DNA of 28,997 nt. It comes from an uncultured Christensenella sp. (lineage in GTDB: Bacteria; Bacillota; Clostridia; Christensenellales; UBA1242). A program made the translations under genes and the position numbers. This document shows, one piece after another, positions 1 to 1,096 of the stretch (positions are counted from its first letter, which is position 1; every line of letters begins with the position of its first letter). Below the pieces are notes generated by a model that ran no database searches, was not told the DNA's origin, and saw only the letters and a list, made by a program, of their open reading frames with translations. The stretch lies in assembly GCA_964368745.1 (NCBI GenBank), contig CAYJCT010000001.1, positions 1 to 28,997 of the forward strand. The letters run 5' to 3'.

Positions 1-89
1 ATTTAATATATTGTTTTTTTAAGTATTTTTTATCATTATCATTTTTTTTAGTTTTCCACTTGTTGTTTTATAATTTTTATTCATCGGCT

Positions 90-959
90 TTATTTTTTTT
101 TATTGTCCACATTACTAATGTGCAAATACTCTTTTGCCCTGTTTGCCTTTGCCTCTGCTCGCACGCGCCCAATCACAAAATCCCCAGCATTCACATCTTT
201 GGTCACGGTGGTGCCTGCCGCCACAAAACAATTGTCGGCAAGAACAAGCGGTGCCACAAGATTGCAGTTGGAGCCCACAAAACAATTGTTGCCTACAGCA
301 ATTTTTTGCTTTGTCTTGCCGTTATAGTTCACAAATATCACTCCGCAACCAATGTTGCAATTGTTGCCAATGCTTGCATCTCCCACATACGCATGATGAC
401 TGACCTTGCTGCCACAGCCAATTGTGCAGTTTTTAAGTTCCACAAAATTTCCAATTTTGCAATTTTCGCCCACATAACAATTGGGTCGCATACGCGAAAA
501 AGGTCCAATCTTGCACCCACTCTCCACAATGCCCGACTCCACTATTGAGTGCTCAATCTCCACAGAGTCGTGCGCAGTGAAATTGGTTATTTGATTGTTT
601 GCACCCACCACACAATTTTCTCCAAAACGAGTAGTGCCAAAAATCATGTTAAAATGTTGAACCACACAACTCGGCCCAATTTCCACTTCTCCATCTATCA
701 CACAGTGGGAAAAAACTTCCACCGATTCATGAAGCACAACATCGCCCTTGATGATGCAGTGCGCACCCAGCACAACATTTTTTTCCAGCACCACATTGCC
801 GTCAATCACACAACCCGCCCCAACAACAACTCCATCGTGCAGTTCCACGCGTCCTAAAAAGGTTGCGCTAGGATGAATGCAAATTTTGCCTTTCAGCCTT
901 AGTTTGCTTATCCCCCTAACACCCCTTAACTTTAAAATTAGCTCTCTTAACCATAACAT
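90..959 (-). CDS. glmU: GlmU-like glucosamine-1-phosphate N-acetyltransferase domain only (left-handed beta-helix), lacking the N-terminal uridyltransferase domain; 289 aa
   Basis: The C-terminal two thirds carry the GlmU acetyltransferase motifs in order: IGPFSRMRP, IGNFVELKN, SKVSHHAYVGDA (catalytic His motif), NIGCGVIFVNYNGKTK, FVGSNCNLVAP, VAAGTTVTKDV. Hexapeptide repeats run throughout. There is no nucleotidyltransferase domain. The start is uncertain because no SD lies before ATG 959. Confidence 0.85.
   Translation of the reverse strand: MLWLRELILKLRGVRGISKLRLKGKICIHPSATFLGRVELHDGVVVGAGCVIDGNVVLEKNVVLGAHCIIKGDVVLHESVEVFSHCVIDGEVEIGPSCVVQHFNMIFGTTRFGENCVVGANNQITNFTAHDSVEIEHSIVESGIVESGCKIGPFSRMRPNCYVGENCKIGNFVELKNCTIGCGSKVSHHAYVGDASIGNNCNIGCGVIFVNYNGKTKQKIAVGNNCFVGSNCNLVAPLVLADNCFVAAGTTVTKDVNAGDFVIGRVRAEAKANRAKEYLHISNVDNKKK
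693..854 (-). repeat. Three additional 18-aa left-handed beta-helix coils in the GlmU-like protein
   Basis: GRVELHDGVVVGAGCVID / GNVVLEKNVVLGAHCIIK / GDVVLHESVEVFSHCVID precede GEVEIGPSCVVQHFNMIF, the point where similarity to canonical GlmU (recalled B. subtilis sequence) begins. Confidence 0.7.
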
Positions 960-1096
960 ATTTTTATATATGTTGCGGTAACTTTTTTTGTGACAGAGTT
1001 TATTTATGAGATATGAGATTGTTTTATGATAATTAAATTAAATGTGCTCACCTTAATAAAAATTTTTCAACTATTACAGATTTTATGTCCCTATAT

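What the first reader, a model, noticed from the sequence alone, without database searches (positions are those of the whole stretch)
90..959. Stand-alone GlmU acetyltransferase half (split or repurposed GlmU)
Seen: a complete-looking ORF with only the C-terminal left-handed beta-helix domain of GlmU. The residues recalled as substrate/catalytic in E. coli GlmU appear kept (R in RMRP, K in ELKN, H and Y in SHHAY, N in NIG, NY..K, S in GSN), but NYDG is NYNG. The upstream 137 bp is AT-rich non-coding DNA followed by the giant gene, so no frameshifted uridyltransferase half is adjacent. Established: bacterial GlmU is normally a bifunctional fusion. Inference: the pathway is split across two genes, the organism kept only the acetyl-transfer step, or this is a paralog acetylating another amino-sugar phosphate.
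Basis: partly seen in the sequence, partly recalled or inferred. Interest (0 to 1): 0.6.

Follow-up and report, generated by a model that had tools for sequence, protein, structure and literature searches.

The report
Stand-alone GlmU acetyltransferase gene
This is a real, intact gene for only the acetyl-transfer half of GlmU, the enzyme that makes the cell-wall sugar UDP-GlcNAc; such half-enzymes are common in small-genome gut Clostridia and usually sit beside glmM and glmS, so it is an ordinary member of a kind that has been noticed but never assayed.

Summary
ORF 90-959 (-) encodes a 289-aa left-handed beta-helix protein. Residues 84-277 match only positions 255-449 of the GlmU model (E 1e-67). 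All acetyltransferase active-site residues are kept.

It is not a remnant. It belongs to a large family of ~205-215-aa stand-alone GlmU C-halves:
- 24 of 40 genomes of the same genus carry one.
- More than 1,300 50%-identity cluster representatives match at E<1e-30, in a mix of architectures.
- The active-site residues are invariant in 121 homologues.
- NYNG in place of NYDG is the family norm (112 of 121).

In relatives the gene lies directly upstream of glmM, often followed by glmS. Natural GlmU-C/GlmM fusions exist. Presence tracks glmM across the genus. So it most likely acetylates GlcN-1-P in a split UDP-GlcNAc pathway.

No genome of the genus searched has a full-length glmU. This genome has murA and glmM. 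No glmS, GlmU N-half, NagU or GlmR was found in the 90.5%-complete assembly. The uridyltransferase partner is unidentified; the best candidate is a GalU-like gene.

Peculiar to this copy are about 70 extra N-terminal residues, forming four more helix coils.

Truncated GlmU forms are mentioned in a 2015 paper and a 2026 preprint. This scan has flagged the same thing on many other genomes. Verdict: new member of a known kind, low to moderate interest.

The parts
90..959 (-). glmU-C: stand-alone GlcN-1-P N-acetyltransferase-type gene, 289 aa (P0001)
   Evidence: Open frame. GlmU models match E 1e-67. PDB GlmU match E 6e-44. AlphaFold model pLDDT 91.4. The top ~34 Foldseek hits are all GlmU.
129..710 (-). 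Catalytic core, aa 84-277, equivalent to GlmU model positions 255-449 (acetyl-CoA and GlcN-1-P sites)
   Evidence: All mapped active-site residues are kept and are invariant in 121 homologues.
747..959 (-). N-terminal extension, aa 1-~71: short low-confidence helix plus about four extra left-handed beta-helix coils, absent from relatives
   Evidence: Residues 1-86 alone hit Pfam Hexapep at E 3.9e-10. Homologues start at query residues 72-80. None of the best 120 database hits covers it. The model shows strands at 19-22, 33-40, 51-58 and 69-76 with an 18-residue period. It is not a recent internal duplication.
960..1096 (.). AT-rich spacer between the stop of the giant gene (1097) and the ATG at 959; no decayed uridyltransferase domain
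   Evidence: GC 0.23-0.28. No ORF. No Rfam match near any gathering score. No promoter or terminator above chance. No Shine-Dalgarno sequence before the ATG.
1..89 (.). Downstream flank cut by the contig end; the place where relatives carry glmM
   Evidence: The window is G000:C1:1-28997. In relatives glmM follows within about 20-30 nt. Here glmM lies on the separate 2.2-kb contig C170.

Best explanation
The gene encodes a monofunctional glucosamine-1-phosphate N-acetyltransferase: the C-terminal left-handed beta-helix domain of GlmU as a protein of its own. By analogy with solved GlmU it should form a trimer, with active sites between subunits. It would take GlcN-1-P from GlmM and acetyl-CoA and release GlcNAc-1-P. 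A separate enzyme then uridylates GlcNAc-1-P to UDP-GlcNAc for MurA.

Shown here: the domain identity, the retained catalytic residues, the family-wide conservation, the link to glmM/glmS in relatives, and the lack of any full-length glmU in the genus.

Inferred: the activity itself, the trimer, and the partner. The most likely partner is the GalU-like nucleotidyltransferase on contig C105. In sister genomes it or an analogous ~300-aa enzyme is the only sugar-1-phosphate nucleotidyltransferase present. The 252-aa nucleotidyltransferase on C211 is the second candidate.

The extra ~70 N-terminal residues probably just lengthen the helix by four coils.
For: 1. Domain identity. GlmU equivalog models match only their C-half (E 1e-67). 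Solved GlmU structures match at E 6e-44 to 1e-35. The model is a continuous beta-helix with pLDDT 91, and its best structural matches are all GlmU.

2. Active site. R333, E349, K351, H363, Y366, N377, N386, Y387, K392, S405, A423 and R440 are kept, and are invariant or nearly so in 121 stand-alone homologues.

3. Gene context in relatives. The order is glmUc-glmM-glmS in G015, G013 and G001; glmUc-glmS in G019; glmUc-glmM in G034. glmUc and glmM are adjacent in G046, G051, G053 and G055.

4. Fusions. Six natural fusions join this domain to a complete GlmM, in both orders.

5. Co-occurrence in 27 genomes at least 90% complete. GlmU-C and true GlmM are both present in 18 and both absent in 7; only 2 are discordant. 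murA is in 41 of 41 genomes.

6. This genome has murA and glmM but no other GlmU-like acetyltransferase.

7. Selection. pN is 0.21-0.38 against pS 0.70-0.89 between family members; the one unsaturated pair gives dN/dS 0.13.

8. Literature. Separate halves of E. coli GlmU are each active (PMC10087520). GlmM plus an acetyltransferase-only GlmU construct rescues a natural GlcNAc auxotroph (PMC4358021).

9. Partner. In the genus, the GalU-like type and a ~300-aa 3pnn-like type are mutually exclusive, and one of them is present in 36 of 41 genomes, including 23 of 24 GlmU-C carriers. Each is the sole PF00483 gene in five and four near-complete genomes respectively.
Against: - No enzyme assay exists for any natural member of this stand-alone family.
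- In this genome the link to glmM cannot be shown. The gene sits at a contig end. glmM is on another contig, preceded by 166 nt with a terminator-like hairpin, so the two are at best loosely linked here.
- glmS, nagA and nagB were not found, so the source of GlcN-6-P is unknown. The assembly is 90.5% complete in 220 contigs.
- No established GlcNAc-1-P uridyltransferase was found: no GlmU N-half, no NagU/UAP1 type (PF01704), no GlmR/YvcK (PF01933). The pathway as drawn needs an enzyme of unproven specificity.
- The co-occurrence counts come from related genomes and are not independent.
- The ATG at 959 has no Shine-Dalgarno sequence, and the extension is seen in this one assembly only.
Confidence: 0.82

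Rival explanations
1. It is a GlmU-derived paralog that acetylates a different amino sugar (another hexosamine phosphate or a nucleotide-linked amino sugar) for a surface glycan, not for UDP-GlcNAc.
For: Left-handed beta-helix acetyltransferases have diversified often; NeuD/PglB, LpxA/LpxD and WbbJ models give weaker hits. D388 is N in this family. Here the gene lies next to a giant surface-protein gene and is not demonstrably next to glmM.
Against: - GlmU models score 229 bits against 90 or less for other sugar acetyltransferases.
- Every GlcN-1-P- and CoA-contacting residue mapped is invariant.
- Relatives put the gene in glmM/glmS clusters and fuse it to GlmM.
- It is the only GlmU-like acetyltransferase in a genome that has murA.
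- The D-to-N change is shared by 112 of 121 members, including those in glm operons.
Confidence: 0.07
2. It is a decaying truncation remnant of an ancestral bifunctional glmU with no function.
For: The lineage does hold decayed GlmU relics. A 285-aa protein sits at the ancestral rlmH-pth-mfd locus of most genus members and keeps only model positions 207-355. One genus member (G046) has stops inside its GlmU-C.
Against: - The frame is intact over 289 codons in AT-rich DNA.
- All catalytic residues are kept.
- pN is far below pS across the family.
- The end branch in the tree is not unusually long: 0.54 against a median of 0.42.
- The gene is not at the ancestral glmU locus, which in this genome holds tadA.
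Confidence: 0.03
3. The enzyme is as described, but the true product is about 215 aa, starting at an internal GTG near residue 75-92 as in relatives. On this reading the N-terminal extension is not translated or is an assembly artefact.
For: No Shine-Dalgarno sequence precedes ATG 959. GTG 75 follows an AAGGG motif. Homologues start at query residues 72-80. No database protein closer than 64% identity exists to confirm the extension.
Against: - Residues 1-86 alone match the hexapeptide model at E 3.9e-10.
- The frame stays open in DNA where stops are frequent.
- GC (0.49) matches the gene, not the spacer.
- AlphaFold continues the helix without a break at pLDDT 88-97 from residue 21.
- A few other family members (P0123, P0138) also have longer helices.
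Confidence: 0.15

Closest known systems
Bifunctional bacterial GlmU (TIGR01173; e.g. H. influenzae 2v0h, E. coli 2oi6/1hv9, S. aureus 9dqf, S. pneumoniae 1hm8)
   Same: The C-terminal left-handed beta-helix acetyltransferase domain is the same: 31-36% identity, all mapped catalytic and substrate-binding residues kept, and the same fold.
   Different: It lacks the whole N-terminal uridyltransferase domain and the helical arm. It has about four extra coils at its N-terminus. D388 is N. It scores below the family's full-length cut-off.
Engineered acetyltransferase-only E. coli GlmU fragments (GlmU del78 in PMC4358021; C-domain crystals 4aa7 and 3twd)
   Same: These are the same domain on its own. 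The fragments fold, bind inhibitors, and with GlmM restore GlcNAc synthesis in Capnocytophaga (PMC4358021).
   Different: Those are laboratory truncations. This is a natural gene family with its own operon context.
Natural truncated C-terminal-only GlmU noted in the NagU preprint (bioRxiv 10.64898/2026.06.23.733835: PVC bacteria; split halves in Wujia chipingensis) and 'LbH_C only' genera in Fig. S4 of PMC4358021
   Same: The same architecture and the same proposed role: an acetyltransferase half working with a separate uridyltransferase.
   Different: Those cases were found because the genomes carry NagU (UAP1-like). No PF01704 gene is found here or in four genomes of the same family, although the search detects it in 11 of 150 Clostridia. 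GlmR/YvcK is not found either.
Archaeal bifunctional sugar-1-phosphate nucleotidylyltransferase/acetyltransferase (ST0452, 2ggo/5z09; TIGR03992)
   Same: A beta-helix acetyltransferase acting on an amino-sugar 1-phosphate.
   Different: It is much more distant (E 1e-11, short stretch only) and is fused to its nucleotidyltransferase.

Membership tests
GlmU acetyltransferase (C-terminal LbH) domain | Left-handed beta-helix built of hexapeptide repeats | tested here: met
   Pfam Hexapep E 6.5e-34 in six stretches. The AlphaFold model is a continuous helix with pLDDT 91.4. The top ~34 Foldseek PDB hits are all GlmU.
GlmU acetyltransferase (C-terminal LbH) domain | Specific sequence match to the GlmU C-half and not to other LbH acyltransferases | tested here: met
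   TIGR01173 and PRK14354 score 229 bits on model positions 255-449. The best non-GlmU family, NeuD, scores 90 bits.
GlmU acetyltransferase (C-terminal LbH) domain | Catalytic base H363 and the substrate/CoA residues R333, K351, Y366, N377, N386, K392, S405, A423, R440. Residue roles are recalled from E. coli GlmU structural work; the mapping comes from the alignment to 2v0h. | tested here: met
   All are present in P0001 and invariant or nearly so in 121 homologues; D388 is N in 112 of 121.
GlmU acetyltransferase (C-terminal LbH) domain | Works with GlmM and GlmS (pathway association) | tested here: inconclusive
   Met in relatives: operons, fusions and co-occurrence. In this genome the contig ends 89 nt after the stop, glmM lies on another contig, and glmS was not found.
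GlmU acetyltransferase (C-terminal LbH) domain | Acetyl-CoA-dependent N-acetylation of GlcN-1-P by a trimer | not testable with these tools
   Needs an enzyme assay and an oligomer measurement.
Bifunctional GlmU (TIGR01173 equivalog) | N-terminal GlcNAc-1-P uridyltransferase domain with the nucleotide-binding loop | tested here: not met
   No match to model positions 1-240 in the ORF or in the 137-bp upstream spacer.
Bifunctional GlmU (TIGR01173 equivalog) | Score above the curated full-length cut-off (366.85 bits) | tested here: not met
   229 bits. No locus in the genome exceeds the cut-off.

The most novel reading that the evidence does not exclude
This bacterium, and most of its genus, makes UDP-GlcNAc with none of the GlcNAc-1-P uridyltransferases described so far (GlmU N-domain, NagU/UAP1 type, GlmR/YvcK). 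The step would be done instead by a GalU-family enzyme (contig C105), or in sister species by a ~300-aa enzyme like PDB 3pnn. That would be a further, unrecognised solution for an essential cell-wall step, paired with the stand-alone acetyltransferase.
Probability: 0.4. Interest if true: 0.5.

Novelty: new member of a known kind. Interest (0 to 1): 0.27.

Why it matters
GlmU is treated as a universal, essential, bifunctional antibiotic target. This locus adds to the evidence that the two activities are often unbundled in reduced-genome anaerobes.

In this genus the pathway comes in three states:
- glmS + glmM + glmU-C;
- glmM + glmU-C only;
- none of the three.

That pattern predicts which species need host- or community-derived glucosamine or GlcNAc. 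This is useful for cultivating these uncultured gut Clostridia.

The open point with some value is the missing uridyltransferase. The gene in the window is itself a routine member of the family.

Tried and rejected
- Decayed N-terminal half upstream: rejected. The spacer is 137 bp, AT-rich and has no ORF.
- Gene cut by the contig edge: rejected for the 5' end; only the downstream flank is lost.
- Joining contig C170 (glmM) to the window start: no sequence overlap, so it cannot be shown.
- N-terminal extension as a recent internal duplication, or derived from the 285-aa GlmU relic of sister species: not supported. There is 31% identity over 54 aa to its own later coils, and no tblastn hit of the relic in this genome.
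- C211-type nucleotidyltransferase as the dedicated partner: weak. It is present in only 13 of 40 genus genomes and does not track GlmU-C.
- The 439-aa nucleotidyltransferase of relatives: it is an HddC-GmhB-like fusion next to heptose-pathway genes, so irrelevant.
- NagU (PF01704) and GlmR/YvcK (PF01933): not found in this genome.
- glmS, nagA, nagB: not found.
- Regulatory RNA or clear promoter/terminator around the gene: nothing above chance.
- dN/dS for this copy: not computable because synonymous sites are saturated against every relative.

Full report
**1. What is there**

ORF 90-959 on the minus strand starts with ATG and encodes 289 aa.
- Pfam finds six hexapeptide stretches (E 6.5e-34) and the GlmU C-terminal hexapeptide family.
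- NCBIfam GlmU equivalog models match residues 84-277 to model positions 255-449 only (E about 1e-67, 229 bits). This is below the full-length cut-off of 366.85. All other acyltransferase families score 90 bits or less.
- Solved GlmU structures match at E 6e-44 to 1e-35 over the same residues.
- An AlphaFold model built on a 51-sequence alignment has pLDDT 91.4 and is one continuous left-handed beta-helix from about residue 19 to 260.
- Its best ~34 Foldseek matches in the PDB are all GlmU.

The upstream 137 bp (960-1096) have 23-28% GC and no ORF. The 8,369-aa gene ends at 1097.

**2. Active site**

The alignment to H. influenzae GlmU gives E. coli-type numbering. The protein keeps R333, E349, K351, H363, Y366, N377, N386, Y387, G389, K392, S405, A423 and R440. 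The roles of these residues are from my knowledge of the E. coli GlmU structures, not from a tool.

In an alignment with the 120 best database homologues, these columns are invariant or nearly so. Position 388 is N in 112 of 121 and D in 9.

**3. Not a one-off**

The 5.8-billion-protein search gave 2,848 hits at E<1e-20. The best 120 are all 173-248 aa (median 214), 48-64% identical, from uncultured Clostridia. They cover only about residues 84-289 of the query.

The exhaustive representative search gave 1,354 cluster representatives at E<1e-30. By length, the 165 sequences placed in the tree (most of the best 150 representatives plus 18 proteins from relatives' genomes and the query) were:

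| Class | Count |
|---|---|
| Stand-alone (262 aa or less) | 24 |
| Intermediate (263-439 aa, shortened N-domain) | 106 |
| Full-length | 28 |
| Fused to a complete phosphoglucosamine mutase (PGM_PMM domains I-IV), in both orders | 6 |

Some intermediate metagenome proteins may be fragments. G035, G036, G038 and G040 are complete ORFs in genomes.

In a FastTree of the shared domain, the window's protein lies in a clade of 14, of which 12 are stand-alone forms of 262 aa or less and one is a 273-aa protein (support 92). The clade is nested among N-shortened forms. Its branch length is ordinary.

Between family members pN is 0.21-0.38 against pS 0.70-0.89. The one unsaturated pair gives dN/dS 0.13.

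**4. Context**

The window is the start of contig C1 of a 1.18-Mb assembly (220 contigs, 90.5% complete). Only 89 nt follow the stop codon.

In relatives the ~200-215-aa gene stands directly before glmM and glmS (G015, G013, G001), before glmS (G019), or before glmM (G034, from another family). In G046, G051, G053 and G055, glmM abuts it.

Here glmM lies on the 2.2-kb contig C170. There are 166 nt, including a terminator-like hairpin, between its start and the contig end. The two contig ends do not overlap, so linkage cannot be shown.

**5. Pathway in the genome and the genus**

- No locus in the genome reaches the GlmU cut-off.
- None of 40 genus genomes has a full-length glmU, while 8 genomes of other families in the order do.
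- murA is present in 41 of 41 genus genomes.
- Among the 27 genomes at least 90% complete, GlmU-C and a true GlmM (at least 370 bits) are both present in 18, both absent in 7, and discordant in 2 (G019, G003).
- glmS is present in a subset. It is missing from this genome and from G046, G051, G053 and G055, which still keep the glmM-glmUc pair.
- nagA and nagB were not found here.

These are related genomes, so the counts are descriptive and not a test.

The genus therefore shows three states: de novo (glmS + glmM + glmUc), glucosamine-dependent (glmM + glmUc), and neither. The third state presumably depends on GlcNAc, as described for Capnocytophaga (PMC4358021).

**6. The ancestral locus**

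In most genus members a 285-aa protein lies between rlmH and pth-mfd, the classical Firmicute glmU position.
- It matches GlmU model positions 207-355 only (E 2e-24).
- It has lost the nucleotide-binding loop.
- It ends before the acetyltransferase active site.

G036 and G038 carry, at that position, 348- and 400-aa forms with a decayed N-domain and an intact C-half. In this genome the slot holds tadA and no relic.

**7. The uridyltransferase**

This genome has two lone nucleotidyltransferase genes:
- a GalU-like one on C105 (TIGR01099 269 bits, below its cut-off of 327);
- a 252-aa one on C211 with no clear assignment.

NagU/UAP1-type (PF01704) is not found here or in four genomes of the same family, although the same search detects it in 11 of 150 Clostridia. 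GlmR/YvcK (PF01933) is not found either.

Across the genus:
- The GalU-like type is in 22 of 40 genomes and a ~300-aa type (PDB 3pnn-like, E 3e-69) is in 14 of 40.
- The two never co-occur. Together they cover 36 of 41 genomes, including 23 of 24 GlmU-C carriers.
- Each is the only PF00483 gene in the near-complete genomes tested.
- The C211 type is patchy (13 of 40) and does not track GlmU-C.

By elimination the GalU-like enzyme is the best candidate partner. This is inference only.

**8. The extension**

Homologues begin at query residues 72-80.
- Residues 1-86 alone match the hexapeptide model (E 3.9e-10).
- Their GC content matches the gene.
- They fold as four further coils.
- They are not a recent duplication of later coils.
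- A few other members have longer helices (P0123, P0138).
- No Shine-Dalgarno sequence precedes ATG 959, so the start is not certain.

**9. What is known**

- Separate halves of E. coli GlmU are each active (review PMC10087520).
- GlmM plus an acetyltransferase-only GlmU rescues Capnocytophaga, and Fig. S4 of that paper lists genera with only the LbH_C domain (PMC4358021).
- A 2026 preprint reports C-terminal-only and split GlmU in NagU-bearing bacteria (10.64898/2026.06.23.733835).
- GlmR is a reported accessory uridyltransferase (10.1101/2021.10.27.466214).
- This scan has already flagged the same architecture on many other genomes, including operon and GlmM-fusion cases.

**10. Verdict**

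This is a functional stand-alone GlcN-1-P acetyltransferase and a new member of a known kind. The local peculiarities are the longer helix and the absence of every known uridyltransferase type from the assembly.

Noticed in passing
L027:4111-4965 (-) (G018); also L028:3795-4652 (+) and L029:3945-4802 (-): A conserved 285-aa GlmU relic sits at the ancestral rlmH-[x]-pth-mfd locus in most genomes of the genus. It matches GlmU model positions 207-355 only, has lost the nucleotide-binding loop, and stops before the acetyltransferase active site. It may be a retained pseudoenzyme. This genome has tadA at that place instead (contig C35).
   Followed up: partly
G000:C105 (L007:1423-2289 -) and L040:1279-2175 (-) (G015): Two unrelated sugar-1-phosphate nucleotidyltransferase types never co-occur in the genus: a GalU-like type and a ~300-aa type 3e-69 to the uncharacterised PDB entry 3pnn. 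Together they cover 36 of 41 genomes, and each is often the only such gene. They look like analogues for an essential step, possibly UDP-GlcNAc synthesis.
   Followed up: partly
P0153, P0156, P0264, P0265, P0229 (LbH-GlmM) and P0197 (GlmM-LbH): Natural fusions of the GlmU acetyltransferase half to a complete phosphoglucosamine mutase exist in both domain orders, in metagenome proteins of 614-687 aa.
   Followed up: partly
G006:C8:7042-8082, G017:C7:10321-11361, G009:C133:3303-4361: Some genus members carry only the isomerase (SIS) half of GlmS (355-368-aa frames matching model positions 241-604) without the glutaminase domain. This may be a deaminase-type route to GlcN-6-P.
   Followed up: no
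G046:C7:96297-96887: One genus member's GlmU-C reading frame contains two in-frame stops (TGA, TAA) although glmM next to it is intact. This may be a recent loss.
   Followed up: no
G000:C170:2055-2221: glmM of this genome lies on a 2.2-kb contig. It is preceded by a terminator-like hairpin flanked by A and T runs and followed by a divergent 184-aa membrane-protein gene, so it has no glmS neighbour.
   Followed up: partly
L030:3266-4585 (-) (G018): A 439-aa nucleotidyltransferase fused to a GmhB-like phosphatase lies next to a GHMP kinase and a SIS isomerase. This looks like a compact nucleotide-heptose pathway in several genus members. No homologue of the fusion protein was found in this genome beyond weak hits to its two other nucleotidyltransferases.
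   Followed up: no
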